DNA of 64,000 nt from an uncultured Candidatus Saccharibacteria bacterium (lineage in GTDB: Bacteria; Patescibacteriota; Minisyncoccia; Minisyncoccales; JAGMDC01), in assembly GCA_964615205.1 (NCBI GenBank), contig CAZTQA010000002.1, positions 53,286-117,285 of the forward strand, given 5' to 3'. Below the pieces are notes generated by a model, which ran no database searches, was not told the DNA's origin, and saw nothing but the letters and a program-made list of their open reading frames with translations. Of the stretch, positions 30,456-47,698 are shown in pieces (positions within the stretch are counted from its first letter, which is position 1; each line of letters opens with the position of its first letter). The position numbers and the translations under genes are program-made.

Positions 30456-31639
30456 TTCTTAAGAATTCTCCACATTATTATTATTGGAGTTAGAAACATT
30501 ATTGAAACTACTAAAACGATCAGCCACCAGGAAAAAAGCTTTCCTTTTATCTCCAATCCTTTGTTCTCAATATGGGAAACCAATGGTGTCATCAGTCTAA
30601 AACGGGCTTCAGCTTCTCTGTTATTGCCGGCTTTATCAACTGCTTTTATTATAACATTGTATTTTCCAGCTTTGATAAAAGGTACTTTGTAGGGACTAAT
30701 TTGCTCTGAAAAAAAGGAAGGAAATGTTTCTGGATTACTTAAATCGCTGATACCTACTTCATAATGGTCAACGCCAGAAGCATCATCTTTTGCTTCAAAA
30801 TAGACCATAGTTTGGTAACCAACCAAACGTGAGTAGGTTTCTACTTTAGGACTGAATTCATGGGGTGGCGTTGTATCTATCCTCACAGCCACAGTAGAAG
30901 TTTGACCCCAGACATCGTCTTTTTTCTGGCGGATGTGAAAATACCAAATACCATCTTTGGTACTGGGAAAGGAAATCATGGTTGTTTCTCCCTCGCTCGT
31001 GCCATCTGGCCGGTTGTTAGGATTCTGGTCAAAAATCCATGAAAAATCAGTTGCTCCTTTTTCTTTTTCCCAACTGAAACTTGGACTGGAATCGGTATAC
31101 CAGACGTTAGGATTGGCATGGGTCGGAGAAAAAACTTGAGGACCTTCTGATGCCGGAATTAAAATTTGATACTCGCCATTAATTTTATTAGTCAAAATAT
31201 CAGTTCCTTTGCCATCATTCAAAAGAACCTTGGATCCGTCTTTGAATTTTATCTTCGCTGTTCCTGAAGCAACAGCCCGAAAAGTAATTGCAGAAACCAA
31301 GCCAGCTGAAGTAGTAATGCCTTCCCTCACACCTCCCTGAAAATTGACAATGCCTATTTCGTTGGAATAATTAGGCGGTATAGTCCACTGGGAAACAAAA
31401 GAATCGCCAGTGGTTGGAGAAGTAATTTGCAAAATCTCTGCTGGAAATTCCAGTTCAGCCCAAATCACATTAATATCATTGCCTTCGGTATTTAAAAAAA
31501 TAGAAACCGTAAAAGCACTTCCTACCAAAAAACTACCCGAAGAAGGAGAAAGATAAAGAGAAGAACTTGCACCTTGTGCAATAGTTATTAAGCCAAGACT
31601 AAAGATTATAATAAAAAATATTAAAAATGATTTATTCAT
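30452..31639 (-). CDS. Secreted surface protein, paralogue 3 of 4 (cohesin-like N-domain, C-terminal TM anchor)
   Basis: 'KVLLNDGKGTDILT', 'DGIWYFHIR', 'IDTTPP' and 'AVDKAGN'. Confidence 0.5.
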   Translation of the reverse strand: MNKSFLIFFIIIFSLGLITIAQGASSSLYLSPSSGSFLVGSAFTVSIFLNTEGNDINVIWAELEFPAEILQITSPTTGDSFVSQWTIPPNYSNEIGIVNFQGGVREGITTSAGLVSAITFRAVASGTAKIKFKDGSKVLLNDGKGTDILTNKINGEYQILIPASEGPQVFSPTHANPNVWYTDSSPSFSWEKEKGATDFSWIFDQNPNNRPDGTSEGETTMISFPSTKDGIWYFHIRQKKDDVWGQTSTVAVRIDTTPPHEFSPKVETYSRLVGYQTMVYFEAKDDASGVDHYEVGISDLSNPETFPSFFSEQISPYKVPFIKAGKYNVIIKAVDKAGNNREAEARFRLMTPLVSHIENKGLEIKGKLFSWWLIVLVVSIMFLTPIIIMWRILKK

Positions 31640-32771
31640 TTTTAGAAATTAGAAATTTTTTAAAAATCCAAAAAACCACTAACAAAATGATAATGATTAA
31701 TATAAACAAATAGATAACTTCTGTCTTTTTCTCTGGAATATATTCTGCTATTCTTTCATTGCCTGCCTGGTCAACTGCTTTGACAACAATCTTCGTTTTT
31801 AAATCCTGGTCTTCTAATAAATAGGGACTGGTAATTTTTTTAAAATCCTTATTGCCTTCTTTAATTTCATAATAATCTATTCCTGAAGTTTTATCGGTGG
31901 TGCTAAAACTTAAAAAATACTTTCCTTCAAATATGGCTGGTTCCTGACCAATCTCCAAATTAAATTCTTGAGGCAAAGTATTGTCTATCATTGCCCGATG
32001 AGAAACAGCTTCTGACCAATCTTTGTCCGAAAACTTCTGTTTTAATGTAAAATAATAGATGCCGTCTTCAAGATCCGCGTATTTCATATCACCCACCCAA
32101 AATGATTCATCTCCTTCTGGTTTGTCGGGAATTTCATCTGGCTGGGCTAAAGGATCACGGCTCAAAAGATAGCTGTATTCAGCTTCTTCATTTAAATCCC
32201 AGTGGAGACGAAGAACATTAAACTTTGACCACTCATATTGACTAGGATGAGTATTAGAATATATTTCAACTAAATCTTCTGGTTTTTCAATAATCTCATA
32301 ATCACTCTCAAGAAAATGTAAAGAAGAAACTGTACCTTTACCATCATTTAATAAAACTTGAGAACTATCTTCAAAATCAATTTTAGTTTGAGAAACCTGC
32401 TTAGATTTAAAAACAATTCTGCCAACTAACCCCTGACCATTAAATCCATTAGGCACGCCGGCAATAAAGGATATTTGATTTTTGGAAATACTCGGCTCTT
32501 TAGCCCAGAGGGTTAAGAAAGAACCGCCTTTATTAAATTCAATAAACTCTAACAATTCATCAGGGTAATTTAAATCTATGCCTACGGTATTGATTTCTTC
32601 ATTTTCGGTATCCAGCATCAACTCAAGAATAAAAGAATCATTCTCGTAAACAGTCTGCCCCTGTGGCAGGAAATAAAGAGTAGAAGCTAAAGCTATATCA
32701 GCAATAATAAACAAGAGACAAGTGACAAGGGATAAGTAACAAGTTTTTGATTTTAAACTGTGACTTTTCAT
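31632..32771 (-). CDS. Secreted surface protein, paralogue 4 of 4 (cohesin-like N-domain, C-terminal TM anchor)
   Basis: 'QVLLNDGKGTVSSL', 'DGIYYFTLK', 'IDNTLP' and 'AVDQAGN'. Confidence 0.5.
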   Translation of the reverse strand: MKSHSLKSKTCYLSLVTCLLFIIADIALASTLYFLPQGQTVYENDSFILELMLDTENEEINTVGIDLNYPDELLEFIEFNKGGSFLTLWAKEPSISKNQISFIAGVPNGFNGQGLVGRIVFKSKQVSQTKIDFEDSSQVLLNDGKGTVSSLHFLESDYEIIEKPEDLVEIYSNTHPSQYEWSKFNVLRLHWDLNEEAEYSYLLSRDPLAQPDEIPDKPEGDESFWVGDMKYADLEDGIYYFTLKQKFSDKDWSEAVSHRAMIDNTLPQEFNLEIGQEPAIFEGKYFLSFSTTDKTSGIDYYEIKEGNKDFKKITSPYLLEDQDLKTKIVVKAVDQAGNERIAEYIPEKKTEVIYLFILIIIILLVVFWIFKKFLISKNE

Positions 32772-32808
32772 TTTTGATTTTTGATTATTTTAGTGTAGGT
32801 TGACTACG

Positions 32809-33753
32809 TCAACCTGTCCAAAAGTACATCATAATGCTAAAGTCTGTCAAATTAACTATACCATCTTTATTTTGGTCAGCACAGGTATTGGATTTTCCCC
32901 ACCAATAAAGCAAAATGCTGAAATCAACCATATTGACTTTGTTGTCATGATTAAGATCAACTCCTGAACAAGGATGGGCTTCCATATAAAAACTTAATTC
33001 ATTGGAAAATTCACTCACCAAACCTTGAGGAGAAACAACTTTGGCTTTAACTGAATAATTACCTTCTTTGCTTAAAACACTTGAATCAAAAGAATAAAGC
33101 CATTTTCCTTTCTCGTCGGCTTGAACGGTTTTAGAAATATTGGCTAAGGAATTAATAAAAACAGTCATTTCAGATTCGGACGCGCTATAACCAAAGATAT
33201 CCAAATCTCCCCCCTGGTAAATATTATTTGCGTTTAGTTCAATAGTGGGCGGGAAAAATATGTTTGAGAAAGTAGTTGTAGTATCTCTATTGAGAGAAAT
33301 AGTAAAATTTAAAGTGGGTGATTTTCTATTTTCTTCATCTTCTGCATATAAACCAAACTGCCAAACGCCTACCGGAATTCCAGTTAATTTCAAAGAAAAA
33401 TTTCCTGAAGAGTCAGCTAATCCAGTTTTAGCCACCACATTGTTTCTCATAACAGCAATAAAAGCATTGGGGTAAGCTGCTCCTTTGAACACAACATTGG
33501 CATAATAGGTTATTGTTCCGCTAACGCTCCCGCCTCCAGAAGGCGGAGGCGTTGGTGCGCCGCCCTCAACAGTAGCTGAAACACTCATCCCGCTTTCAAC
33601 TGGCTGGGCTTGAATTTTTTGACTAAAAACAAAAATAGTAAAGAAAACTAAAAATAATAAAAAAACGGTTCTTATGGATAAAAAAAACCGCCAAAAGGAA
33701 AAACTTTTTTTATAATTCAAAAAATTGTTTGTTTTTTTGTTTAAAGGAAACAT
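32809..33753 (-). CDS. Secreted dockerin-containing protein (carboxypeptidase-regulatory-like beta-sandwich domains plus a C-terminal type-I dockerin)
   Basis: signal anchor; two canonical Ca-binding dockerin repeats 'DLNHDNKVNMVDFSILL' and 'DQNKDGIVNLTDFSIMM'. Confidence 0.7.
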   Translation of the reverse strand: MFPLNKKTNNFLNYKKSFSFWRFFLSIRTVFLLFLVFFTIFVFSQKIQAQPVESGMSVSATVEGGAPTPPPSGGGSVSGTITYYANVVFKGAAYPNAFIAVMRNNVVAKTGLADSSGNFSLKLTGIPVGVWQFGLYAEDEENRKSPTLNFTISLNRDTTTTFSNIFFPPTIELNANNIYQGGDLDIFGYSASESEMTVFINSLANISKTVQADEKGKWLYSFDSSVLSKEGNYSVKAKVVSPQGLVSEFSNELSFYMEAHPCSGVDLNHDNKVNMVDFSILLYWWGKSNTCADQNKDGIVNLTDFSIMMYFWTG

Positions 33754-33761
33754 TCATTATT

Positions 33762-34724
33762 TTAAACAGATGTCTTTTCTCCCTTCACCAATACCTTCAC
33801 AGCCAGTTTCCATCTCTTTCTGGTTTTAAAGAAAAAGATAAAAATAAGCGCTAAGCCAACAACAATTCCCAAGATTATCTTCCAGGGCAAAACCCAGAAA
33901 GTGATAACGCGAGAATCTATATTCTGGTTGGACACCCCGTAGACCCCGAAGATAGTGGCTGTATATTTCCCAAACAGCCATTTAGTGTCCCATTCTGCCT
34001 TAATCTTTCTGACAGCTCCCGGCATAACATTTTCCTGCGGAAATTCCAGTTCTTTAACATTATTGTTAAACCAGTTAGCAATCACTATATATCCTTTTGG
34101 CTTGACATGAACAGTTCCCTTGTTTTCAAATCTTATTTCAAAGGCCACGGGCCCGTACTCTTGGAAGGAAGATGTTGAAAAATCTTTCACGCTAAGTTTC
34201 TCTTTTAAATCCCCTGCCACCATTAATAGAACAAGACTTCCTGTTTTTGTTGAAATGACAGCTCCGGTTCCATCTTCCTGCATAGAACCGGTTATTCCTA
34301 CTAAAACAGAACCGTATTTTCCGCCTGGCTCTGCATTTTGAGGTACTTCTATTATGAAATTAACTGTTTGGTCTCCTTTCCCTTCTAAGGTAAACTCTTC
34401 TGGTGTTATGGTTATCCATTTGCGGAGAGAATAGGTTGTGTCTTCTTCCTGTTCAGAGGTGGTGACTACCCGCCCCTCTTCTCCTATGGCCACAAAGTTT
34501 TCTGCCTCCATTTTTATAGAAATAGCCGCGTCTGAAAAATTAGACACTTTTAGTGTATTGGCAATTATATCTCCTGGATTGGCTGTAAGTTCAAAAGTCA
34601 AAGGAGAAACTGTAACGCCCGGCCCCTGGGCATTAACCTGAAAAGCTAAAACCAATCCTATAAGACCTACACTTATTAAAATTAATGATTTTTCCCAATT
34701 CATTTTAATGGGTTTTCTTAGCAA
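33762..34724 (-). CDS. Cell-surface beta-sandwich protein with C-terminal TM anchor (DUF916/CscA-like topology), paralogue B
   Basis: signal peptide; C-terminal 'WVLPWKIILGIVVGLALIFIFFFKTRKR'; paralogous to the 35994..37070 protein. Confidence 0.45.
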   Translation of the reverse strand: MLRKPIKMNWEKSLILISVGLIGLVLAFQVNAQGPGVTVSPLTFELTANPGDIIANTLKVSNFSDAAISIKMEAENFVAIGEEGRVVTTSEQEEDTTYSLRKWITITPEEFTLEGKGDQTVNFIIEVPQNAEPGGKYGSVLVGITGSMQEDGTGAVISTKTGSLVLLMVAGDLKEKLSVKDFSTSSFQEYGPVAFEIRFENKGTVHVKPKGYIVIANWFNNNVKELEFPQENVMPGAVRKIKAEWDTKWLFGKYTATIFGVYGVSNQNIDSRVITFWVLPWKIILGIVVGLALIFIFFFKTRKRWKLAVKVLVKGEKTSV

Positions 34725-34804: not shown

Positions 34805-35953
34805 TTAATAGGTCGGCGTAGCAATAAAAACAAGGGTATCAGTATAAGTTCCAGCTGGAGTAGTTGCGGCAATGGCTGCATACAAAGCCACCTCAACAAT
34901 ACCGCTGCTGACAACCCCGGATGCAGAAGCAATTTCCTGGTTGCTGGTGCTTATTATCCCAGTAGCAGTCTCATCTGCGAACGTATTTTCAGTTAAAGTA
35001 GTTCCACTGGAAGTATATAAAGCATATCCCTCTGTTCCATCCGCAATATCATTTGCATTGTCAGCTTCAATTAACTCCGTTGTACTAGAACAGTATAATC
35101 CTGCATTTGTTGTACCGTCACCCGTGCTCCTAGCCGTAACTGAAACTCCACCACCACCATTTGATGAAACAGTAAGCTGGAAAGGAGAAGAATTAGAACT
35201 AGTATCACCAGCTGCATTTTTAGTAGCCCAGGTATCATCTGTAGCTCCACCTGTCCAGGTTCCAAAACCAACAGCGTAATCGTCACATGAGAAAGTCAGA
35301 TATTCCTCAACGGTTCCAGTAACTCCTACCCCGGCAAGCATGGCAACCCGAGCTGCTCCAGATTCATCTGATGTTGTTACAGTAACAGAACAAACATTAC
35401 TGTCGTCTCCTGTACCGCAAGTGGCTGTTGCCGGGTTTGTGATATGGGCTGTTCCTCCTGCTACCGAACCAATCTCTATAGTAATCGGTTCCTCATCAGC
35501 AATAGTTGTTCCAGTACAAAGAGTAAAAGTAATCGTGCTTGTTCCTATTCCAGTAACACCCAGTTCATCATCAACACAAGCGCCTTCGTCAAGAGTATAA
35601 TCATCTGAATCATCAGCAATGTCTATATCTGCAAAAACCACGCTAGCAACATTAAAATCGGCTTCAAAGGCAACTTGTATGGTATCACTGTCTGTTAAAG
35701 CACCAGCTTTAATAGTGAAAGCAATCGTGTGATCTGAAGCAGTGCCAAACCGCGAATCTGATAATGTGTCTTTGACGCTGGCTAAAGTGGCTTCTGCGTT
35801 TTCAGTAATTAATAAAAACGAGAACACCAAAGTACCCATGCAAACAAGCGCAATAATTTTTTTACTTAATTTTTTTACCTTTTCTGGCATTTTTTTAGAA
35901 AAATTTAATCTTGCCTGCCGACCTTTTAATTTTAAACAGGCACATAAACACAA
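34805..35953 (-). CDS. Thr/Gly/Asp-rich secreted surface protein with conserved C-terminal motif '..TYTDTLVFIATPTY'
   Basis: signal peptide (the likely real start is Met22, near 35890); T/G/S/D-rich beta composition; C-terminus shared with the 1240-aa giant. Confidence 0.45.
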   Translation of the reverse strand: MCLCACLKLKGRQARLNFSKKMPEKVKKLSKKIIALVCMGTLVFSFLLITENAEATLASVKDTLSDSRFGTASDHTIAFTIKAGALTDSDTIQVAFEADFNVASVVFADIDIADDSDDYTLDEGACVDDELGVTGIGTSTITFTLCTGTTIADEEPITIEIGSVAGGTAHITNPATATCGTGDDSNVCSVTVTTSDESGAARVAMLAGVGVTGTVEEYLTFSCDDYAVGFGTWTGGATDDTWATKNAAGDTSSNSSPFQLTVSSNGGGGVSVTARSTGDGTTNAGLYCSSTTELIEADNANDIADGTEGYALYTSSGTTLTENTFADETATGIISTSNQEIASASGVVSSGIVEVALYAAIAATTPAGTYTDTLVFIATPTY

Positions 35954-35993: not shown

Positions 35994-37070
35994 TCAATCT
36001 GTGGAAAACTTTTTTCTTGTTAAAATGACTTTCGCGGCTGCTCTAATTCTTTTCCTCATTAAGATCAAAATGACAAGGACAAAAAGAATTATTAGGAAAA
36101 TTTTCCATGGGAAAATCCAAAAGCTGATATACTTGTCTATCTGGTTATTTCCAAAATTCATTATTAAATGGGCTTGAAATTTGCCCCAAAGTAAATTTCT
36201 AGAAATAAAATTAGAAATAGTTTCTGGCAGATATTTAGCAATTTTTTCTGAAAGCGAAGCTTTGAATTCAACCGGAAATCTGCGGATTTTGCCAGGCATA
36301 ATAGTGGTTTCAGCCACAATTGTTTCCCCTACTGTTCTGCCAGTCCAGGAAGTAATAACTAATTTGCCTTCTGGCTTGATATGGAAAAGGTCATTATTTT
36401 GAATACGCAAAGTAAAAGGCAGTTCGCTGGCACTGACAATAAAAAAAGGTTTTTCTTCCTTGGCTAAAGCTTTGGCAAACAGGCCGCTGGCGCTGGCTAA
36501 AGCATTTTCTAATTTCTGAAGATGGAAGTTTTCAGGAATATTAAACTCAACCACAGTTAAGGGTTCTGATGATCTTTGTTTGTCTTTCATATCAACGGAA
36601 AGCAGAAATAAAACACCAATTTCAGGAACAGCTTTAACTGTTTTATTTTCAAAGTAATAAGAAGGCAGTTTGGGTCCAAATAAGATAGTAACATAATATC
36701 CTCCAGCATTTACTTCTTGAGGGATATTGATTTCAAACTTAACTTTTTCTGACTGGTGGGGCTCTAAAATAAAATAAGGGTTTTCAATTTCAAACCAATC
36801 CCGCGGATTAACAGCTGTTTCCTCTGGAAAATCTATAGCTCCTTCCTCGCCCACTGCTTCAAAGTTAATTGTTTTGGCTTCAAAGGGTATGCTTAGATCG
36901 CTTTTATTTAACAAATAAATCCTGTCCTGATAATTCTGGCCTTTTTCCAACTCCAACTCAAAAATCGGCGGAGAGACAAAGATGTTTATTCCCTCATTAG
37001 CATGACATATTCCGTTAATGGATATTAACACCAAACTAACTAAAATTATTTTTAATATTGTGCTGTGCAT
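35994..37070 (-). CDS. Cell-surface beta-sandwich protein with C-terminal TM anchor (DUF916/CscA-like topology), paralogue A
   Basis: signal peptide; C-terminal 'FWIFPWKIFLIILFVLVILILMRKR'; 19-bp overlap with the upstream giant gene. Confidence 0.45.
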   Translation of the reverse strand: MHSTILKIILVSLVLISINGICHANEGINIFVSPPIFELELEKGQNYQDRIYLLNKSDLSIPFEAKTINFEAVGEEGAIDFPEETAVNPRDWFEIENPYFILEPHQSEKVKFEINIPQEVNAGGYYVTILFGPKLPSYYFENKTVKAVPEIGVLFLLSVDMKDKQRSSEPLTVVEFNIPENFHLQKLENALASASGLFAKALAKEEKPFFIVSASELPFTLRIQNNDLFHIKPEGKLVITSWTGRTVGETIVAETTIMPGKIRRFPVEFKASLSEKIAKYLPETISNFISRNLLWGKFQAHLIMNFGNNQIDKYISFWIFPWKIFLIILFVLVILILMRKRIRAAAKVILTRKKFSTD

Positions 37071-40000
37071 ATGAATATAAGCGTGGTTGAATAATCACCG
37101 GCTAATTGGGTGGTTGGAACCGAGGATTTAACAGTCATGCGGTAAGTGCCACCAGTATCTGCTTGGGAAACCGGCTGGCTGTAATCGCTAATAACATTGC
37201 CGGGGCTAGTAGAAGGAAACTTAGCATAGTTGCTGCCTGAATTGTAGCGGTCGGAACCTTCAACTAAAGGATCATTAGAAGTATAGCCAAATCCGCAATA
37301 GCTGCTGTTGTCTTTGCAATAGCCGCTCCATTCTAACGGAGAACTGTAAGTGCCAGAGAAATCATCTATATATATAGTAGAGGGAAAATCAACATGACGG
37401 AAAACATTAGGCGTATAAGCGCTTGAAGCCCAACTGGTTACCATGTAGCCATGGCTGGCACTGGTAGTCACCTTTAAATCAAGCCAGTCAGTACTGGTAA
37501 AGTTAGGCGATTCTAAAGTGCCGATTTCAAGTGTTGGCGGATCATCTGTATCGCTGTCAACAATCTCAAAATCCAGGCCTGGCCGCAGACCGCAATAGAA
37601 AGTGCCATAAGTTGGCGGATCATCTATGGATGGTTCAGTATTATTAGCATCAATATCTTCCCTGCGCCAGTCATAACTACCGCTGTCGCCAATAATATTA
37701 TCATGACCTCCTCCAGAATAATAATTGGAAATAACATACTTGTTATCGCCTGCCCACTCGTAATAATCATATTCTCCATAACTGGTCTGCCATTTCACAT
37801 ATAAATTATAGTAATAGAAGGTATAACCAGAAGAAGTTCTGGAATATTCCCTAATCCTAATAGCGCCATTATTGTTTGGCTGGGGAATCTTGCCATTGCT
37901 GTCAGTGCCAGTTTCCTGATAAGTTGAGGCACTGCCCCAGGAACCACTGCTATATTTCCAAACAGTTGGTTGGGGCGTGCCAGAGTTTTCAGAAATGACC
38001 ACATCAGTATCACCTGTATCAATATTAGCCAAAGTCCCAGCATCAACCAAATGCGCACCAACATACCAATCACTATTCAATGTCGCCCCAGCAGCCGGCG
38101 CAGCTGGCTCACTACTGCTATCTAAAACCGTATTCAAGGCAGTGACTGTGCCGGAATTGACTTTCATGTAATCTACCTTGGCTTCCTGGATAATTAATTC
38201 TGAACCAGTGTCATTGTTGAAATTCCAGGAACCAGAAGCTGGCGCGTAAGTGACAGTGGTCTTGTCGTTTAAAGCGCTCTCCCCGCCTTTAATTTCCAAA
38301 TTCTCTCCAGAACCAACTGTCACTGTAGCATTTTCTTGGATAGTCACTTGGCATTGCCGAGTAACTCCAGCACCATCAAAATCCTTGGCATATGACCAGT
38401 AATCAGTTGCACTGTCTGGCACAGCATAAGCGCCCCAAATAGATAAGTAGCCGTCATTAGCTGCGTGGTCCATTGAATACAAACTACCAGAAATATTATA
38501 GGTGGAAGCTGAAGAATCCCACATCCTGATATATTGGCCAGCGCTAACATTGATTGTTCCGTAAACATCACCGCCAATGTTTTTGATGTCATTAATGCAG
38601 TAGCTGCCTGAACCATCTAAGACTAAAATAGAACTGGTCCAGGTAGTTGATAAGCCACCAACATTGTTCTTGAATTGGCCTTGCACAGTAATTGTCCTGT
38701 CAGTAGCGTCAAAGCTGTTCAAGCTGGTCAAAGTAAAGTTATTGGTAGCCTTCAATTCATTGGTAGAGATCGTCCAACCTCCGCCAGAATTGTTAAAAAC
38801 AATATTGTAAAAAGTTTTGCCAGCAGCAGTGCCGTCAGTAACAATGGTTTCGCCGGTATTTGCTGAATCAAAGGTAACTGTGCCTTCTTGACTAGTGAAT
38901 GTGCCTGAATTAGACCAGGAACCTCCAACATTAATAGCATAATAACTGCCTGAAACATCTAATGTAGAATTAGCATTAGCAATAGTCAAATCATTTTCCA
39001 CATCAATAGCTCCGCTTAAGGTAACTGTATTGGCGCTGCTCTTGGCTACTTGCAAGTCATAGAAGTCATGATTTTCATCAGTGCCTCCTGGAGACAAAGC
39101 GCTGGCAGTTGTTTCATCAAAGACAACAGTAGTAGGATAAGTTTCTGATTCCTGGGCAGTAAAAGTAGCTCCTCCTGCTACTGTCCAGTCAGTGCCCAAA
39201 TTAATAATTGTGCCATTGCCAGGTTCATTAGCACCGCCAGATTCAGTGCAATCCAAAGTGCCATTAACTGTCACAAAAGTACCAATATTCAAATCCCAGC
39301 CATGAGTTTCAAATTTATCACCACTGGCTACTGTTAAACTGTCAGCTGTCATATCGCTCTTTAATTTGGTCACAGCTGGTGAATTTCCTATTTGTACTGT
39401 CCCCATATTCTCTTTAGTGCCATTTGAATCAGTAAAATAACGAGGATAAGTATCATCACCGCCGTCAAAGATTAGAGTGCCTGAACCTTTGGTGTAATCG
39501 CCACCGCTTTCAATGGTTAAATCTCCATAAACAGTTAAGCTATTGGTACTGCCAACGAAACTAGCAGCGTTCTTAATCAAGAAAGTGCTGGTGGCTGATA
39601 AAGTAGAATTGCCAAATGCCAGAACAGGATTATTAGTATCTGCTTTCAAAGTAACTGCATTAGTTCCATCACCAATTGTCACATTGTTATTAGCTACAAT
39701 GTTACCTAGAATTGTATAATTCGGCGTGCCGCTGGTTGGACTGAATTCCAAATTATAATAAGTGGTGCTGGTAATATTAGTAGCTGATGTACCAGTATAT
39801 TTAATTGTAGAATTGTTGTAAGTGAAAGTGCCATTCTTCACAAATGGCGTTGTTGACCCAGTCAAAGTAATGGTTTTATTAGACCCGTCAAAGATATGGT
39901 TATTAGTACTGCCAGCAATAGTTAAAACATTATTAACTGTAAAATCACTAGCAGCAGTAGTTGTGCCAGTTTCAGTGTTGTCGCCTAAAGAAAGATTGTA

Positions 40001-40774
40001 AAAAGTGATTCCTCCGCTACCGCCGCCGAGGTTGCCAGTGTCGAGAATAGTTGTTGTGCCAGCAGAACAGCCGGAACAAGTAATTGTGCCCGTTGAAGCA
40101 GTGGTTAAAGCACCGCCAGTGATATTCAGATTCTGGCTATTCAAAGCTAATTCTTGTGCATCAGCTACAGCTAAGGTATATGTTTTAACTCCAGTGGAAA
40201 GTTGAATCTTTGGCGTATCAGAACCTCCAGTAATGGAGACAATGCCAAGGTTTTGTTTAGTTCCATTATCATCTGCCCAGGTTTTGGTGCCGCTGACTGT
40301 CCAGGTCAAGGTAGCTGAATCACTCTTAGTCCAGACACTGGGTGAATTTAAATCTAAATTGCCTTTTAAGGTAATGGCTGGACTATAAGTATTCCAGTCA
40401 ATGGTTGGCGTATTGGTTTCATTACCAATAGTTAAGTTGCCATTAATGGTAATTGTTTGTGAACCAGTTGTAGCTAAATGATAAGTAGTATTAGCTGAAG
40501 GTTTTAATTCTAAATTATTAAAAGTGGTTTGCTGGATATCGCTTTCAGATGAGCCAGTGAATTTAACTGTATTACTATTAGCATTAAAGGTTCCTGAATT
40601 AATATACAAAGGTCTGGATGTACCTGTGCCAGAACCAGAAAGAGTCAGGGTTTCATTATCACCAGTATAAGTGCCAACTATTTCTAATTGGCCAGTGCTG
40701 ACATCAGCATCAGTGCCTGGTGCATAAGTATCTCCGGTATTAATGTATGTCTTGACTGTAGAAGCAGTGGACAA
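37052..40774 (-). CDS. Giant Thr/Ser/Gly/Asn-rich beta-solenoid-like surface protein (1240 aa) with no own signal peptide; probably the C-terminal continuation of the 40876..44028 gene; C-terminal motif '..DYSTTLIFICTAQY'
   Basis: TTG is the first in-frame start; the upstream reading frame stays open back to 40909 with the same composition; no N-terminal hydrophobic segment. Confidence 0.5.
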   Translation of the reverse strand: MSTASTVKTYINTGDTYAPGTDADVSTGQLEIVGTYTGDNETLTLSGSGTGTSRPLYINSGTFNANSNTVKFTGSSESDIQQTTFNNLELKPSANTTYHLATTGSQTITINGNLTIGNETNTPTIDWNTYSPAITLKGNLDLNSPSVWTKSDSATLTWTVSGTKTWADDNGTKQNLGIVSITGGSDTPKIQLSTGVKTYTLAVADAQELALNSQNLNITGGALTTASTGTITCSGCSAGTTTILDTGNLGGGSGGITFYNLSLGDNTETGTTTAASDFTVNNVLTIAGSTNNHIFDGSNKTITLTGSTTPFVKNGTFTYNNSTIKYTGTSATNITSTTYYNLEFSPTSGTPNYTILGNIVANNNVTIGDGTNAVTLKADTNNPVLAFGNSTLSATSTFLIKNAASFVGSTNSLTVYGDLTIESGGDYTKGSGTLIFDGGDDTYPRYFTDSNGTKENMGTVQIGNSPAVTKLKSDMTADSLTVASGDKFETHGWDLNIGTFVTVNGTLDCTESGGANEPGNGTIINLGTDWTVAGGATFTAQESETYPTTVVFDETTASALSPGGTDENHDFYDLQVAKSSANTVTLSGAIDVENDLTIANANSTLDVSGSYYAINVGGSWSNSGTFTSQEGTVTFDSANTGETIVTDGTAAGKTFYNIVFNNSGGGWTISTNELKATNNFTLTSLNSFDATDRTITVQGQFKNNVGGLSTTWTSSILVLDGSGSYCINDIKNIGGDVYGTINVSAGQYIRMWDSSASTYNISGSLYSMDHAANDGYLSIWGAYAVPDSATDYWSYAKDFDGAGVTRQCQVTIQENATVTVGSGENLEIKGGESALNDKTTVTYAPASGSWNFNNDTGSELIIQEAKVDYMKVNSGTVTALNTVLDSSSEPAAPAAGATLNSDWYVGAHLVDAGTLANIDTGDTDVVISENSGTPQPTVWKYSSGSWGSASTYQETGTDSNGKIPQPNNNGAIRIREYSRTSSGYTFYYYNLYVKWQTSYGEYDYYEWAGDNKYVISNYYSGGGHDNIIGDSGSYDWRREDIDANNTEPSIDDPPTYGTFYCGLRPGLDFEIVDSDTDDPPTLEIGTLESPNFTSTDWLDLKVTTSASHGYMVTSWASSAYTPNVFRHVDFPSTIYIDDFSGTYSSPLEWSGYCKDNSSYCGFGYTSNDPLVEGSDRYNSGSNYAKFPSTSPGNVISDYSQPVSQADTGGTYRMTVKSSVPTTQLAGDYSTTLIFICTAQY

Positions 40775-40875
40775 ATCTCCTGATGCAACTGTATAAAGTA
40801 CATCGGTATCTTCTCCTGAATCCCAAAGAGCTAATTTGGCATTTGTTACTGAAGTAGAAGTCTGGCTTTCTATCC

Positions 40876-43800
40876 TTAAAGTATCTTTGTATACATTAAT
40901 ACTAAAATACTAACATTTTCCCCATTAGACAAGGTCACTGAAACACCATCTTCTGTTTCTCCTTCCATATAAACTGAAATCAATTTGTTAGCAGCTGGCT
41001 CGGGAATATCAGCTACAGAAAAATAGCCAGTATCAGCATTGCAGGTGGTCGTGTAAGTTGTATCGTCTTCCACGCTGATTTTGACATTGGGAGTAGATCC
41101 ATCGCATTCATCCCACTTAGTAGGCGTGACGTCTTCATACATATAGCCGGAAATAGTGATGTTAGCTGGGCTATACTCGCCATCCAGTTCTATGGCTGTA
41201 ATGCGTATCATAAGATAATCAGGACCTTTGGATTTGCTGTAGCCCCAAGTAAAAAGAAGAACTGCTCCATCCCAAACTGTTTTATTATTGTTGCCCTGAA
41301 GAGTAAAAGGTTGAGTCGCCTTGGCGTAAGAGCTAGTACTAATATTAGTCCATTGGCAAATAGTGACTTGATTGGTCAAAGCAGCTCCTTCTTCTGATTC
41401 AAAGATTTGAGCGTAAAGAGTAACCTGATCATCGTCTCTAGCGCCAGCTGCTTTTACCACTACATCAATATTGAGCGAATCCATAGAAACAAAATCAGAA
41501 GGCATATTATCAAGGGTAAAGTATTGACTAGCATTAGTGGCATCATCATCATTTACCACATAGCTTGTGTCATTATCGTGGCTTTCAGCGTCATCATTGA
41601 CTGAATCCCAACAATCTTGATTAGCGGCAGCGCACTCATTGGATAAGCCTGTATTGAATGTATTCGTGTAACCATCTGAACTATCTGAATCAGGCCTTAT
41701 ATCAGACACAGGCATATCTGAAACAATCTGCCACTGCCTTGCTTCGGCAAAAATAAAACTTGTCTCTTGTTGCTTGTCACTAAATACAATACCGTCATTT
41801 GATCCAGTAGTAGTTTCTATAGATGTTATCGAAGTTGGACTTTGATAGCTGGTTTTGTTGGATCTAAATTCCAAAAGACCAAGAAAATATACATAAGGGC
41901 TAATATCTGGCGCATCAAATTGATAACTTAATTCATAAATCTGACCTGCTTGCCAATCAACATCCCAAGTAGTTGAACCAGTGATTTCAAAACAAGCTGG
42001 CACTTGTTCTATTATCTGGCCATTAAAATCCTGATTAGCTTTTACTTTTATGGTCATCTGATAATCAGCTGGCGGGTAAATTCTGGTTGGACCGATTCTT
42101 TCCACCTCAAAAGGAACTTTTTGCCAAACCTCAAAAGAATCTGTAATTTCATAACCATTATCAAGGTTGGTGAGTTTAATGTCGTAAATACCCAACTCCC
42201 CTGTTTGGTAATAAGAAAAGTAATCAGGTATATCAACAACATTATTGGGTCCGCAAAGACCTGATCTCTGCATTTCTGGATGACTAACACTTTTGTCAGG
42301 AGCAGTAATCTCCAATAACAAATTACTATCGCATATAGTATCGCCATTATCTGCTAAAGCAGCCATCTGCAGATAGGCCTGTTCTCCAGACACATATATT
42401 GATTTGTTGACATTAATAGCCAAAACTCCCCAGATAAAATCCTGTGTAAATTCTTTAACATCTCCGTCTTCTTCAATTTTTAAAATAATCTTGTAAAGGC
42501 CGGGCTTAAGATTCAGAGGTTTTTTAATTTTTACAGAAAAATCACCATTGTCTTTTTTAGAAACTTCTGTTTCAATTTCAGAATTTAGTTCATTGTAGAA
42601 ATTCTTGATTTCTATTGTCAGATTGACATCCTCCCAAAAATCATAGGCGCCGATTAGTTCTTCAATAGAATCAACAAAAGAAAACAAAATGTTTTTTTCT
42701 TTTTTATTATAGCGGAAATCAAATTCCGGCTCTTCTCTAGCTTGAAAATTCCTTTTAGAAGAAAGTTTGTTGATTTTAGGTTCCTCTTCTTTTTTCTCGT
42801 CATAAATTAGTTCTAGCCAAACAGCATCAAGATAAACCATTAGTCTTTCTGATGAATTGTTATTAGTTAAATAGCTGACTCTTATCTTTAAATTGTTAAT
42901 CTCCTGCCAATCAAAATCAGCTGGTAGACTAAAAGAGAAAAAGCCGAAATTTAAAGCATTGGAATATTCCTGGTTTTGATTAAAGGTAACCAGATTATTC
43001 CAGGACTGGTTATCTAAAGACCACTCCAATAATACCTGGTCATTTTCTAATTCTCTACCCTGGCTGGCAAAAGAAAAATTAACATTCATTTTTTGGATTT
43101 CTTTTGCTTCATCAAAAGCATCTTCCTTAGGTAGAGAAAAACTGGAAACAATCAAGCTTGCCTGTTCCGTAAAGATAACTACTTCTTCTTGTCCTTTGTC
43201 GCTTGTCTCTTGCTGGCTTGTTTCTTGCTGCCCCGGCATTTCTCCATCAACTGTTGGAAGAATGACTTCTACTCCCTCTTGAGGAGAAGAAATCGTTTCT
43301 TCTGAATCAACCATTTCTTTTACGCCTTCTAAGAATATAGTTGTAGTATTTACTGAAGATATACCCTTTTCACTAAAAATAGAACTATTTAACGTATCGG
43401 GTAGATTTAAAGTATCGGATAGTTTAATAAAAGCTGAATTCTGGCTATTAAAACTATTTAAATCGCTATTATTGCTTAAATCCAAAATTAAAACATTGTG
43501 TGGGTTCTGCCATTCTGTTCCTCCATTTGATTGAAGCGACCAAACAGTAGGAAAAACCTCTATTTTTTGCTCTTTTTTAGGAAAAGCGTAGATAACTAAA
43601 GCTGAAATACCGATAATCAAAAACACTAAAACGCTTGGCAAGGCATAATGAAGACCCTCTGAAAAGTTGTGCTTAAAAGCGGGAAGGAAACGAGATAGTT
43701 TTTTACTCCAAAAAAACTTCTTAATCTTTAAATTTTTACCTATTTTCTTTTCTTTTTTCTTCTTAATCTTGTAATTAAGAACTGTTTCAGGATTAATCAC

Positions 43801-44028
43801 CCAGGTTTTGCCTAAAGAAATTGATTTACCTTTTATTTTCTTGGTCCTTATCAAATATCCAATGTAATCAGAACTATAACCGGATAATTTAGCCGCTTCT
43901 TTAAGAGAAATATATTCGTCCTTCTTTCTTTTTATATCTTTTTTTCTTTTCATTTTATCGCGAGGGTCGAGATTTCTACAATTTTTCAACCATTCTCTTA
44001 TTTTAACAAATAAAAAAGAGCTGGACAA
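40876..44028 (-). CDS. Membrane protein with cytoplasmic excisionase/MerR-type HTH, one TM helix and a 900-aa extracellular domain; likely the N-terminal part of a roughly 2300-aa surface protein interrupted by a frameshift
   Basis: 'ISLKEAAKLSGYSSDYIGYLIRTKKIKGKSISLGKTWVI' matches the HTH_17 pattern; TM 'VLVFLIIGISALVIYAF'; the C-terminus runs in the +1 frame into the 1240-aa giant at a TAGTATT-TAGTATT duplication (about 40880-40905). Confidence 0.5.
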   Translation of the reverse strand: MSSSFLFVKIREWLKNCRNLDPRDKMKRKKDIKRKKDEYISLKEAAKLSGYSSDYIGYLIRTKKIKGKSISLGKTWVINPETVLNYKIKKKKEKKIGKNLKIKKFFWSKKLSRFLPAFKHNFSEGLHYALPSVLVFLIIGISALVIYAFPKKEQKIEVFPTVWSLQSNGGTEWQNPHNVLILDLSNNSDLNSFNSQNSAFIKLSDTLNLPDTLNSSIFSEKGISSVNTTTIFLEGVKEMVDSEETISSPQEGVEVILPTVDGEMPGQQETSQQETSDKGQEEVVIFTEQASLIVSSFSLPKEDAFDEAKEIQKMNVNFSFASQGRELENDQVLLEWSLDNQSWNNLVTFNQNQEYSNALNFGFFSFSLPADFDWQEINNLKIRVSYLTNNNSSERLMVYLDAVWLELIYDEKKEEEPKINKLSSKRNFQAREEPEFDFRYNKKEKNILFSFVDSIEELIGAYDFWEDVNLTIEIKNFYNELNSEIETEVSKKDNGDFSVKIKKPLNLKPGLYKIILKIEEDGDVKEFTQDFIWGVLAINVNKSIYVSGEQAYLQMAALADNGDTICDSNLLLEITAPDKSVSHPEMQRSGLCGPNNVVDIPDYFSYYQTGELGIYDIKLTNLDNGYEITDSFEVWQKVPFEVERIGPTRIYPPADYQMTIKVKANQDFNGQIIEQVPACFEITGSTTWDVDWQAGQIYELSYQFDAPDISPYVYFLGLLEFRSNKTSYQSPTSITSIETTTGSNDGIVFSDKQQETSFIFAEARQWQIVSDMPVSDIRPDSDSSDGYTNTFNTGLSNECAAANQDCWDSVNDDAESHDNDTSYVVNDDDATNASQYFTLDNMPSDFVSMDSLNIDVVVKAAGARDDDQVTLYAQIFESEEGAALTNQVTICQWTNISTSSYAKATQPFTLQGNNNKTVWDGAVLLFTWGYSKSKGPDYLMIRITAIELDGEYSPANITISGYMYEDVTPTKWDECDGSTPNVKISVEDDTTYTTTCNADTGYFSVADIPEPAANKLISVYMEGETEDGVSVTLSNGENVSILVLMYTKIL

Positions 44029-44064
44029 CAGCTCTGCTGTGGATAATTTTATCTAAAAAAATAC

Positions 44065-47633: not shown

Positions 47634-47698
47634 TTTGTTTTCTTTATTTTTAATATATTTATATATTTTACAAAAAAACGAGTAATAATGTCAAACAA

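What the first reader, a model, noticed from the sequence alone, without database searches (positions are those of the whole stretch)
40870..40915. A roughly 2300-aa surface protein split by a frameshift at a TAGTATT-TAGTATT duplication; its N-terminus is a cytoplasmic HTH plus a TM helix
The 1240-aa T-rich protein has no signal peptide and no ATG. The first in-frame start is a TTG at 40774. Upstream of it the frame stays open for another 45 codons (YFSINVYKDTLRIESQTSTSVTNAKLALWDSGEDTDVLYTVASGDL) with the same composition, back to a TAG stop at 40910-40912. The upstream 1050-aa gene stops at 40876 in the +1 frame, inside a tandem duplication (gttagtattttagtattaatg). One indel or ribosomal slip there would fuse the two ORFs. 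The fused protein would have a cytoplasmic excisionase-type HTH, one TM helix and about 2200 extracellular residues, which looks like a membrane-tethered one-component regulator or adhesin. The site could be a genuine phase-variable switch, a pseudogenising mutation or an assembly error.
Basis: seen in the sequence. Interest (0 to 1): 0.66.

Follow-up and report, generated by a model that had tools for sequence, protein, structure and literature searches.

The report
Giant pilus-linked surface gene, frameshifted
One very large cell-surface gene of an uncultured ultra-small (Patescibacteria) bacterium has been cut in two by an 8-base tandem duplication; the break itself is an ordinary recent mutation, but the gene it breaks is an undescribed giant relative of the newly reported "Pam" pilus proteins.

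Summary
On the minus strand, an exact 8-bp tandem duplication (TTAGTATT x2, window 40898-40913) lies between a 1025-aa ORF and a 1240-aa ORF. Deleting one copy gives a single 2297-aa ORF. Positional orthologues in four other Patescibacteria are single ORFs of 2170-3936 aa. A 55%-identical relative reads ...ISINVYK... exactly across the restored junction (...VSINVYK...). The same duplication occurs in three assemblies, all 100% identical to the window, so it is a real allele of one population and not an assembler artefact. No slippery site and no repeat tract support programmed frameshifting or classical phase variation.

The intact protein has these parts:
- An N-terminal HTH_17-like motif.
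- A K/R-rich linker.
- One TM helix.
- About 2170 extracellular residues.
- A C-terminal domain with a chaperone-usher-type pilin fold (AF2 pLDDT 90.6; top PDB hits PapG, FimG and PapA pilin domains). It is distantly related to NCBIfam CPR_Pam_pilin_C.

It is the first gene of a conserved operon that also encodes a pilin-like protein, two membrane-anchored DUF916 chaperone-like proteins, a PamR-like/dockerin protein and cohesin proteins.

Most likely this is a recent loss-of-function frameshift in a giant pilus-linked adhesin. The frameshift is ordinary. The gene family is a new variant of a known kind.

The parts
40898..40913 (-). Exact 8-bp tandem duplication TTAGTATT x2, which is the frameshifting lesion. 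It shifts the downstream part to the -1 frame.
   Evidence: Deleting one copy restores a 2297-aa ORF. The duplication is present in L007 and L008.
40876..43953 (-). 5' part of the split gene (ORF A, 1025 aa from the ATG). It encodes the HTH, the TM helix, a conserved juxtamembrane region, an MG2-like region, and the first part of the module cut by the frameshift. It ends with an aberrant tail, LVLMYTKIL*.
   Evidence: (public gene call, 1025 aa).
43771..43914 (-). HTH_17-like (excisionase/MerR-type) helix-turn-helix, residues 14-61. Predicted to be cytoplasmic.
   Evidence: Pfam PF12728 scores 19.7 bits, E 0.001, covering model positions 1-46 of 51, below the gathering cutoff. The motif is conserved in one or two copies in 10 homologues. 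Homologues P0001, P0003 and P0006 have precomputed PF12728 hits.
43579..43647 (-). The single transmembrane helix (residues ~103-125, SVLVFLIIGISALVIYAF). It acts as a signal anchor. The first 100 residues hold 31 K/R, which places the N-terminus inside the cell.
   Evidence: Kyte-Doolittle scan: the only hydrophobic window in 2297 aa.
37052..40909 (-). 3' part of the split gene: 1285 open codons in the -1 frame. Public gene calls give 1240 aa from the TTG at 40774. It has no signal peptide. It encodes a T/N/G-rich repetitive (beta-helix-like) region and the C-terminal pilin domain.
   Evidence: The 45 codons upstream of the TTG are homologous to internal parts of intact orthologues.
37055..37609 (-). 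C-terminal ~185-aa domain (...AGDYSTTLIFICTAQY*) with a chaperone-usher/Pam-type pilin (truncated Ig-like) fold.
   Evidence: The AF2 model has pLDDT 90.6 and pTM 0.86. Foldseek top hits are the PapGII pilin domain, FimG, CfaE, PapA, FimA, PapH and CsuA/B, with probability 0.93-1.00. The family has 497 representatives, with the domain always at the extreme C-terminus. Of 34 members, 24 hit NF058581 CPR_Pam_pilin_C below its cutoff.
44017..44035 (-). Terminator-like hairpin plus T-run after the upstream cation-efflux gene. It overlaps the spurious TTG 'start' at 44028 and marks the giant gene as the start of a new transcription unit.
35994..37070 (-). Downstream gene g358: signal peptide, DUF916/WxLIP_PGBD-like domain (weak) and a C-terminal TM helix. 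A candidate PamC/D-like membrane-anchored chaperone.
   Evidence: PF06030, 18.6 bits, below cutoff. Orthologues follow the intact giant genes in L009, L010 and L011 at 37-54% identity.
34805..35890 (-). Downstream gene g382 (about 361 aa from M22): a pilin-like protein. Its C-terminus, AGTYTDTLVFIATPTY*, resembles the C-terminus of the giant protein.
   Evidence: BLASTP E 6e-4; NF058581, 13.5 bits, E 0.056, model positions 18-148 of 148; CTD HMM E 7e-5; orthologues in L009, L010 and L011.
33762..34703 (-). Downstream gene g320 (313 aa): a DUF916 (WxLIP_PGBD) protein with a signal peptide and a C-terminal TM helix. It is a paralogue of g358 and the second chaperone-like protein.
   Evidence: PF06030, 28.1 bits, above the 27.3 cutoff. 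(more than 518 homologues, named DUF916 in Patescibacteria)..
27488..33753 (-). The rest of the conserved operon: g314 (weak PamR-like N-terminus plus dockerin), g379, g395, g433 (cohesin) and g558 (cohesin plus Big_13). The last four are paralogues, all with signal peptides. g379, g395 and g433 end in a C-terminal TM helix.
   Evidence: The same gene order occurs in L010 and L011.

Best explanation
Window 37052-43953 (minus strand) is one ancestral gene. It encodes a ~2300-aa surface protein of a Paceibacterota-type (Patescibacteria) bacterium.

The lesion (shown): in this population the gene carries a recent 8-bp tandem duplication. This shifts the frame and stops translation after 1025 residues.

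The intact protein (architecture shown; topology inferred from the positive-inside rule):
- One cytoplasmic HTH_17-like motif.
- A K/R-rich linker.
- A single TM anchor.
- About 2170 extracellular residues, made of MG2-like and Ig-like modules and long T/N/G-rich beta-helix-like repeats.
- A C-terminal chaperone-usher/Pam-type pilin domain (fold shown by prediction).

Operon context (synteny shown): it is the first gene of a conserved operon. The operon also encodes a small pilin-like protein with the same C-terminal domain, two DUF916 chaperone-like proteins anchored by C-terminal TM helices, a PamR-like/dockerin protein and cohesin-bearing surface proteins, most with a C-terminal TM helix.

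Likely function (inferred): the giant protein is the adhesive, donor-strand-accepting component of a Pam-like pilus or surface fibre. It would be analogous to the two-domain tip adhesins FimH and PapG, which have a binding part plus a C-terminal pilin domain.

Consequence of the frameshift (inferred): the cell would make a membrane-anchored 1025-aa stump with a 9-residue aberrant tail. The 1240-1285-aa distal part, including the pilin domain, has no start codon with good context and no export signal, so it cannot reach the surface. This is a loss of function of the adhesin. The event is recent, because 1285 downstream codons are still open.
For: Lesion and restoration.

Single-ORF orthologues with HSPs through the junction:
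- P0001 (3609 aa), P0002 (3936 aa) and P0003 (2480 aa).
- the L013 ORF (2170 aa).
- L012 at 55% identity reads ISINVYK across the junction.

The junction lies inside a conserved module, [IL][ND][LVI]Y.[DN].[LV], that occurs twice in P0001.

Positional orthology: the same downstream genes follow the intact giant genes in L009, L010 and L011, at 31-58% identity.

Real allele: the duplication is present in JGI 3300005645 contig L007, in ENA ERZ27248922 contig L008, and in the 191-kb NCBI/ENA contig that carries the window's own gene calls.

Architecture:
- HTH.
- TM and charge bias.
- ORF B has no signal peptide.

C-terminal pilin fold and family:
- AF2 pLDDT 90.6.
- Foldseek hits to PapG, FimG, CfaE and PapA pilin domains.
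- SafD-SafA is the best PDB sequence-profile hit, E 0.03.
- 497 family members, with the domain always C-terminal.
- 24 of 34 members hit NF058581 CPR_Pam_pilin_C and 4 hit PamT.
- P0026, 69% identical to the window's C-terminal domain, hits NF058581 at E 5.7e-6.

The Pam system is described in bioRxiv 10.64898/2026.03.03.709456.
Against: - All contigs carrying the allele are 100% identical to the window. The samples may be related, or even share reads, so independence is only partial. No read-level data were available.
- The window's own C-terminal domain gives no NCBIfam hit at E < 0.1. All relatives score below the 55-bit cutoff.
- Foldseek E-values are only 3e-3 to 1e-2, with TM-scores of 0.4-0.5.
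- The chaperone-like fold of g358 and g320 was not tested. No NCBIfam Pam chaperone hit was found.
- An uncleaved N-terminal TM anchor fits poorly with a tip-adhesin role. Relatives L013 and L030 use ordinary signal peptides instead.
- Loss of function is inferred, not shown. Low-level -1 slippage or re-initiation cannot be excluded.
Confidence: 0.8

Rival explanations
1. Reversible ON/OFF (phase-variable) switch. The two 8-bp copies gain or lose a unit by slipped-strand mispairing, and this toggles expression of the full-length giant adhesin in the population.
For: Removing exactly one unit restores the frame precisely. Both halves are otherwise intact, as expected if the OFF state is transient. 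Surface adhesins are typical targets of phase variation (established knowledge). Contigs of this strain break repeatedly inside the gene in other samples, which hints at some within-gene heterogeneity, although not at this site.
Against: There are only two copies of a non-simple 8-mer, whereas contingency loci carry longer tracts. All three assemblies that span the site carry two copies, and no single-copy allele was found. No orthologue has a repeat at this position; L012 has an unrelated codon sequence there. An 8-bp tandem duplication is expected by chance about 2.7 times per window.
Confidence: 0.1
2. Assembly or sequencing artefact. The true genome has one copy of TTAGTATT and an intact 2297-aa gene.
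For: The source is metagenomic. All supporting contigs are 100% identical and might derive from overlapping read sets. The gene is hard to assemble elsewhere: contigs break at 39987, 43419, 43482, 43800, 43917 and 43959.
Against: The same 16-bp sequence appears in a JGI assembly, in an ENA MEGAHIT assembly of another sample accession, and in the 191-kb NCBI/ENA contig. An 8-bp insertion is not a typical short-read error. A 16-bp repeat is far shorter than assembly k-mers, so it creates no graph ambiguity (inference).
Confidence: 0.06
3. Programmed -1 ribosomal frameshift or transcriptional slippage. This would normally yield both a short (1025 aa) and a long (about 2300 aa) product from the present sequence.
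For: The frames overlap by 36 nt and the downstream frame is -1 relative to the upstream one. An A-AAG lies within the overlap.
Against: There is no X XXY YYZ heptamer in the overlap. Slipping at A-AAG would give ...ILVLMYTKDTLRI..., not the conserved ...SINVYKDTLRI... seen in homologues. Orthologues are unsplit single ORFs.
Confidence: 0.02
4. Two genuinely separate genes: an HTH-TM surface protein and an independent 1240-aa protein.
For: Public gene callers annotate two genes of 1025 aa and 1240 aa. An AGGAG lies 2 nt before the TTG at 40774.
Against: The 45 codons upstream of the TTG are homologous to internal sequence of the orthologues. The junction cuts a conserved module. ORF B lacks any signal peptide, yet it ends in an extracellular pilin domain. 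Every CTD-bearing giant gene whose 5' end is covered (P0001-P0003, L013, L030) is one ORF, with either an N-terminal HTH-TM module or a signal peptide. The 2-nt spacing between the Shine-Dalgarno-like AGGAG and the start codon is too short.
Confidence: 0.02

Closest known systems
Pam pilus system of CPR bacteria (PamA/B/E/T pilins, PamC/D chaperones, PamR anchor; Troman et al., bioRxiv 10.64898/2026.03.03.709456; NCBIfam NF058581, NF058579, NF058578)
   Same: - The phylum-level host is the same.
- The C-terminal domain has the truncated-Ig, chaperone-usher-like pilin fold. Its family gives consistent sub-threshold hits to CPR_Pam_pilin_C.
- A small pilin-like gene lies in the same operon.
- Two paralogous proteins have a signal peptide, an Ig-like domain and a C-terminal TM helix, matching the described membrane-anchored PamC/D architecture.
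- There is a weak PamR-like hit.
- No usher or dedicated trans-envelope machinery is present.
   Different: - The protein is 2297 aa, against a few hundred residues for the described pilins. More than 2000 residues of adhesin-like sequence replace the nine-strand NTD.
- The N-terminus is an HTH plus a TM anchor, not a Sec signal peptide.
- All NCBIfam scores fall below the curated cutoffs.
- The host is Paceibacterota-type, whereas Pam pilins were reported mainly in Saccharimonadia and Microgenomatia.
- The operon adds cohesin and dockerin proteins and lacks the described ATP-synthase/CorB neighbourhood.
Two-domain tip adhesins of chaperone-usher pili (FimH, PapG, CfaE)
   Same: The layout is a binding region followed by a C-terminal pilin domain. 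The top structural hit is the pilin domain of PapGII (2wmp_B), and CfaE and FimH are also among the hits.
   Different: The host is a monoderm CPR organism with no usher. The binding region is about ten times larger. The N-terminal membrane anchor has a cytoplasmic HTH. Sequence identity is 9-13%.
WxL / DUF916-DUF3324 cell-surface clusters of Firmicutes (WxL-interacting proteins)
   Same: g320 passes the Pfam WxLIP_PGBD (DUF916) threshold. These proteins have a C-terminal TM helix and are clustered with surface proteins that share a conserved C-terminal domain. Homologue P0012 carries PF11797 (WxLIP_HBD).
   Different: No WxL domain (PF13731) was detected in the giant or pilin-like proteins. 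The C-terminal domain here has a pilin fold.
ToxR/CadC-type membrane-bound one-component regulators, and RsgI-type trans-membrane sensors of cellulosome genes
   Same: The topology matches: an N-terminal cytoplasmic DNA-binding-type domain, a single TM helix and a large extracytoplasmic part. Cohesin and dockerin genes lie downstream.
   Different: The HTH is of the excisionase/MerR-like HTH_17 type, not an OmpR-type winged helix or an anti-sigma domain. The ectodomain is about 2170 aa and ends in a pilin domain. No evidence of DNA binding or regulation was obtained.
Frameshift pseudogenes and slipped-strand duplications in giant bacterial adhesin genes
   Same: A short tandem duplication, not a multiple of three, creates a premature stop in a very long surface-protein gene. 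Both halves are still open.
   Different: Nothing unusual was found. It lacks the long simple-sequence tract of true contingency loci.

Membership tests
Pam pilus pilin (CPR_Pam_pilin_C, NF058581) | Sequence match to the NCBIfam domain model at or above the curated cutoff of 55 bits | tested here: not met
   The window's ORF B gives no hit at E < 0.1. g382 scores 13.5 bits. P0026, 69% identical to the window's C-terminal domain, scores 26.5 bits at E 5.7e-6. Of 34 family members, 24 hit the model, the best at E 2.2e-10, and all score below 55 bits.
Pam pilus pilin (CPR_Pam_pilin_C, NF058581) | C-terminal truncated Ig-like (chaperone-usher-type) pilin fold | tested here: met
   The AF2 model has pLDDT 90.6. 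The Foldseek PDB top hits are the pilin domains of PapGII, FimG, CfaE, PapA, FimA, PapH and CsuA/B, with probability 0.93-1.00, E 3e-3 to 1e-2 and TM-scores of 0.4-0.54. The Pam structures themselves (25PZ, 25QA) are not in the library.
Pam pilus pilin (CPR_Pam_pilin_C, NF058581) | PamA/B architecture: Sec signal peptide, nine-strand beta-sandwich NTD, linker donor strand and CTD, a few hundred residues in all | tested here: not met
   The restored protein is 2297 aa, with an HTH, a TM helix and a ~2000-aa region before the CTD. Whether a donor (linker) strand precedes the CTD was not tested.
Pam pilus operon | Two PapD/FimC-like chaperones with a C-terminal TM helix (PamC, PamD) encoded alongside the pilins | tested here: inconclusive
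   g358 and g320 are paralogues, each with a signal peptide, a DUF916/WxLIP_PGBD domain and a C-terminal TM helix. PF06030 scores 28.1 bits (above the 27.3 cutoff) in g320 and 18.6 bits in g358. No NCBIfam Pam chaperone hit was found.
Pam pilus operon | RbmA-like terminator/anchor PamR (NF058578, cutoff 300 bits) | tested here: not met
   g314 scores 21.2 bits at E 1.1e-4, covering only model positions 9-108 of 297. It ends in a dockerin, not a TM helix.
Pam pilus operon | Polymerisation by donor-strand exchange | not testable with these tools
   This needs complex prediction (CTD with the g382 linker strand, or with the chaperones) or cryo-EM.
Chaperone-usher pilus tip adhesin (FimH/PapG type) | Outer-membrane usher and periplasmic chaperone in the operon | tested here: not met
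   No usher-like gene occurs in the operon (Pfam and NCBIfam scans). CPR bacteria are monoderm (established knowledge).
Phase-variable contingency locus (slipped-strand mispairing) | A tract of several repeat units, whose number varies between reads or strains | tested here: not met
   There are only 2.0 copies. Three assemblies all carry two copies. No single-copy allele was found in the public collections. Read-level heterogeneity could not be examined.
Programmed -1 ribosomal frameshift | Slippery heptamer X XXY YYZ in the overlap, and conservation of the split in orthologues | tested here: not met
   No heptamer occurs in 40876-40912. Orthologues are single ORFs.
HTH_17 (PF12728) DNA-binding domain | Pfam match at or above the gathering score of 27 bits | tested here: not met
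   The score is 19.7 bits at E 0.001, covering model positions 1-46 of 51. Homologues P0001, P0003 and P0006 have precomputed PF12728 hits, marked 'faint'. The motif is strongly conserved across 10 homologues. It is HTH_17-like, but it does not pass the threshold.
ToxR-like membrane-bound one-component regulator | Cytoplasmic DNA-binding domain, single TM helix and extracytoplasmic sensor, with demonstrated DNA binding or regulation | not testable with these tools
   The topology fits. The function is untested.

The most novel reading that the evidence does not exclude
The conserved cytoplasmic HTH_17 motif(s), tethered through one TM helix to a >2000-aa ectodomain that ends in a pilin domain, could form a contact-sensing, membrane-bound transcription regulator. 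In this reading a pilus adhesin reports host attachment directly to DNA, in a ToxR/RsgI-like way. The 8-bp duplication would be a reversible OFF state of that sensor in the population.
Probability: 0.06. Interest if true: 0.8.

Novelty: new variant of a known kind. Interest (0 to 1): 0.4.

Why it matters
The frameshift matters mostly for annotation. The two public 'genes' (1025 aa and 1240 aa) are halves of one gene and should be treated as a disrupted locus. The strain probably lacks this adhesin.

The gene family is more interesting, for three reasons:
- It links the Pam-type donor-strand pilin domain, reported in a 2026 preprint, to giant (2000-4000 aa) proteins, and to lineages outside those where Pam pilins were mainly reported (the operon here is Paceibacterota-type).
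- It shows that this domain is a widespread C-terminal module, with 497 cluster representatives.
- It reveals a conserved operon that combines pilin-like, chaperone-like, cohesin and dockerin proteins.

These are candidate host-attachment machines of episymbiotic ultra-small bacteria. A natural knockout allele could help correlate adhesin loss with host range or lifestyle. The conserved cytoplasmic HTH on a surface protein is unexplained and can be tested.

Tried and rejected
Searches that found nothing:
- A gapped DNA pattern covering both the one-copy and the two-copy allele gave 0 hits in genome contigs and in metagenome contigs. Those collections evidently do not hold this strain.
- A PDB sequence search with g382 returned only noise.
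- A word-indexed homologue search with the C-terminal domain alone returned a single hit.
- NCBIfam scans of g358, g320 and ten g320 homologues found no Pam chaperone model.
- Two literature searches for HTH-TM giant proteins in CPR bacteria found nothing specific.

Tools that failed or were unusable:
- The first AF2 model, built on a 5-sequence alignment, had pLDDT 46.5 and was discarded.

Ideas rejected:
- Reassigned stop codons. TGA, TAA and TAG all terminate long ORFs in this window.
- The TTG at 44028 as the start codon. It lies inside a terminator-like hairpin.
- The 8-bp duplication being significant in itself. Its frequency matches chance.
Full report
**1. The observation**

The genes in question lie on the minus strand. 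ORF A runs from 44028 (TTG) or 43953 (ATG) to a TAA at 40876. ORF B is called from a TTG at 40774 to 37052.

Translating the three frames across 40700-41062 shows that frame B is open from a TAG at 40910-40912. Frame B is -1 relative to frame A.

The 'TAGTATT-TAGTATT' feature is an exact 8-bp tandem duplication, TTAGTATT x2, at 40898-40913. TRF reports period 8, 2.0 copies, 100% identity. Removing one unit produces a single ORF of 2322 codons, or 2297 aa from the ATG. The junction then reads ...VTLSNGENVSI|NVYKDTLRIES....

Stop-codon usage is standard.

An 8-bp tandem duplication is not rare by chance. The window holds two, against 2.7 +/- 2.0 expected, and the other one is intergenic. The sequence feature alone therefore proves nothing. 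Its position is what matters.

**2. One gene or two?**

A search with the restored protein found 14 Patescibacteria homologues. Local BLASTP gave the following results:
- P0001 (3609 aa), P0002 (3936 aa) and P0003 (2480 aa) each match both halves of the restored protein.
- HSPs in P0001, P0002, P0003, P0006, P0011 and P0013 run straight through residue 1016, the junction.
- The junction sits in a conserved module that occurs twice in P0001. Examples are ...ITGLNLYQDRLIVRH..., ...DIDLYQNRLIVRE... and ...GINLYERHLSIGS....

A closer relative from a JGI metagenome (L012, 55% identity over 307 residues) is open through the site. It encodes ...NNISINVYKNNLRI... where the restored window reads ...GENVSINVYKDTLRI.... 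That match across the deleted unit shows that the single-copy sequence is ancestral.

The split gene is also the positional orthologue of intact genes. In L009, L010 and L011 the single giant ORF is followed by orthologues of the window's downstream genes:

| Window gene | Identity to orthologues |
|---|---|
| g358 | 37-54% |
| g382 | 27-37% |
| g320 | 51-56% |
| g314 | 48% |
| g379 | 51-54% |
| g433 | 54-58% |
| g558 | 37-44% |

The closest species representative in GTDB is L013, Candidatus Paceibacterota isolate RS_2_5, whose g320 orthologue is 61% identical. It has an intact 2170-aa ORF in the same position.

**3. Is the frameshift real?**

Exact look-ups show that both half-proteins are in public collections from a 191-kb NCBI/ENA contig.

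Two other contigs span the site, and both carry the two-copy sequence and the same 1025/1240-aa gene calls:
- JGI 3300005645 Ga0077109_1004666 (L007).
- ENA ERZ27248922 k141_299207 (L008).

All of these contigs are 100% identical to the window. They represent one clonal population and possibly related samples. This rules out an assembler-specific artefact but does not establish independent lineages.

A 16-bp repeat is much shorter than assembly k-mers, and an 8-bp insertion is not a typical short-read error (inference). No single-copy allele was found, although those collections apparently lack this strain.

Other contigs of the strain break inside the gene at 39987, 43419/43482, 43800, 43917 and 43959. 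One of these breaks lies next to an 18-bp x2.3 in-frame repeat. None is at the junction.

**4. Programmed frameshift or phase variation?**

The 36-nt overlap contains no X XXY YYZ heptamer. A slip at A-AAG would produce a junction (...ILVLMYTKDTL...) that does not match the conserved SINVYK.

Two copies of an 8-mer can revert by slippage, but this is not the architecture of a contingency locus. Orthologues also have no repeat at this position.

I rate a reversible switch at about 0.1 and an artefact at about 0.06.

**5. What the gene encodes**

N-terminus:
- Residues 14-61 match HTH_17 at 19.7 bits, E 0.001, covering model positions 1-46 of 51. This is below the 27-bit gathering score.
- The motif ISLKEAAK.SGYS.DYIGYLIRKGKIKGKK is present once or twice in all ten homologues inspected. 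It is followed by a K-rich linker, one hydrophobic helix and a conserved juxtamembrane motif.
- The restored protein has exactly one TM-like window (residues ~103-125). The first 100 residues hold 31 K/R against 8 D/E, so the N-terminus should be cytoplasmic and about 2170 residues should lie outside.
- The TTG at 44028 lies in a terminator-like hairpin after the upstream cation-efflux gene, so the ATG at 43953 is the start.

Middle region: there is only a weak MG2-like hit. The rest is T/N/G-rich repetitive sequence.

C-terminal ~185 residues:
- This region is highly conserved, at 59-69% identity to P0001 and P0026.
- A profile search of 1.84 billion representatives found 497 proteins at E <= 1e-3. 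The domain is always at the extreme C-terminus, in proteins from about 115 to 4161 aa, the shortest of them probably fragments.
- Of 34 shorter members, 24 match NCBIfam NF058581 'CPR_Pam_pilin_C' (best E 2.2e-10) and 4 match PamT. All score below the curated cutoffs.
- A first AF2 model built on 5 sequences was poor. A model built on 44 sequences reached pLDDT 90.6 and pTM 0.86.
- Foldseek against the PDB returned almost exclusively chaperone-usher pilin domains: the PapGII pilin domain first, then FimG, CfaE, PapA, FimA, PapH and CsuA/B. Probabilities were 0.93-1.00, although E-values were only 3e-3 to 1e-2.
- The best PDB sequence-profile hit is a SafD-SafA construct, E 0.03.

**6. Context**

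The Pam pilus preprint (bioRxiv 10.64898/2026.03.03.709456) describes three kinds of CPR-specific component:
- Pilins with a truncated-Ig CTD that polymerise by donor-strand exchange.
- PapD/FimC-like chaperones anchored by a C-terminal TM helix (PamC, PamD).
- An acceptor-only tip pilin (PamT) and an RbmA-like anchor (PamR).

The genes downstream of the window's giant gene compare as follows:
- g358 and g320 are paralogues. Each has a signal peptide, a DUF916/WxLIP_PGBD domain and a C-terminal TM helix. g320 passes the Pfam threshold.
- g382 is a pilin-like protein. Its C-terminus resembles that of the giant protein.
- g314 has a weak PamR-like N-terminus and a dockerin.
- Four paralogues carry cohesin-like and OmpL47-type barrel domains; three of them (g379, g395, g433) end in a C-terminal TM helix.

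In 80 Patescibacteria loci found through g320, small CTD-bearing ORFs lie beside the DUF916 gene in many lineages.

The locus is therefore a divergent Pam-like surface-fibre operon. The giant protein carries its acceptor-type pilin domain.

In relatives L013 and L030, the corresponding giant proteins begin with ordinary signal peptides instead of the HTH-TM module. The HTH-TM-~730-aa part is thus a swappable N-terminal module.

**7. Mechanism and consequence**

Shown:
- One ancestral gene.
- An 8-bp duplication.
- A premature stop after 1025 aa, with the aberrant tail LVLMYTKIL.
- The distal 1285 codons left without a start codon or signal peptide.

Inferred:
- The intact protein is a giant adhesive subunit joined to a Pam-like fibre through its C-terminal pilin domain, as in FimH and PapG.
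- The frameshift removes that linkage and most of the ectodomain, which amounts to loss of function.
- The event is recent, because the distal frame is still fully open.

Unexplained: why a surface protein keeps a strongly conserved cytoplasmic HTH. A ToxR/RsgI-like signalling role is possible, but there is no evidence for it.

**8. Verdict**

The observation and the main interpretation are confirmed. The frameshift itself is ordinary: a mutated allele in a metagenomic population. The gene family and its operon are a new variant of the recently described Pam pilus theme.

Interest is 0.4.

Noticed in passing
window 43387-43427 (minus-strand ORF A) and contig ends at 43419 / 43482: An in-frame 18-bp x2.3 tandem repeat (protein ...LSDTLNLPDTLNS...) lies where two contigs of the same JGI assembly break, overlapping by 64 bp (L003 ends at 43419, L007 starts at 43482). 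Contigs from other samples also end inside the 5' part of the giant gene (43800, 43917, 43959) and at 39987. This may reflect copy-number or strain variation within the gene.
   Followed up: partly
window 9968-10007 and 10257-10296 (inside the 1168-aa ORF 7820-11326, minus strand): There is a perfect hexanucleotide array (AGAACT) x6.7 and a perfect 12-bp x3.3 repeat in a large secreted-protein gene. Both are in frame. They are candidate length-variable sites.
   Followed up: no
window 27488-33753: The operon continues with g314, a protein with a dockerin and a weak PamR-like N-terminus. Four paralogues follow (g379, g395, g433, g558), each with a cohesin-like N-terminus and an OmpL47-type barrel. 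g379, g395 and g433 end in a C-terminal TM helix. A cohesin-dockerin pair may replace the TM anchor described for PamR. The same set of genes occurs in L010 and L011.
   Followed up: partly
L013 531-7040 (Ca. Paceibacterota RS_2_5) and L030 3451-8976: Giant proteins with the same C-terminal pilin domain start with ordinary signal peptides instead of the HTH-TM module. L013 begins homology at about residue 735 of the window's protein (…RQWQI.SD.PV…). The HTH-TM-~730-aa part therefore behaves as an exchangeable N-terminal module.
   Followed up: partly
loci L015-L092 (80 Patescibacteria genomes): Small ORFs of 190-480 aa carrying the same C-terminal domain lie next to DUF916 chaperone-like genes. 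The lineages include Saccharibacteria, Microgenomates, Dojkabacteria, Nomurabacteria and Paceibacterota. Some records are labelled Gammaproteobacteria or Nanoarchaeia, which is probably mislabelling of the MAGs. The pilin/chaperone pair appears much more widespread than the published Pam distribution.
   Followed up: partly
window 35854-35878 (5' end of g382) and 47653-47668 (intergenic): A perfect 13-bp x1.9 repeat lies in the K-rich N-terminal coding region of the pilin-like gene, and is in frame as it stands. A second exact 8-bp tandem duplication lies in an intergenic spacer. Both are probably chance events in A/T-rich sequence.
   Followed up: no
window 44065-45267: The upstream cation-diffusion-facilitator gene carries an extra C-terminal Nitro_FeMo-Co-like (DUF-type) domain. 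The Pfam score is 22 bits, below the cutoff.
   Followed up: no
L010 9031-9633 and L011 8530-8745: In two orthologous loci, a small stand-alone HTH_17/MerR-type gene lies just upstream of the intact giant gene. One of the two is fused to HSP20. The window has no such gene at that position.
   Followed up: no
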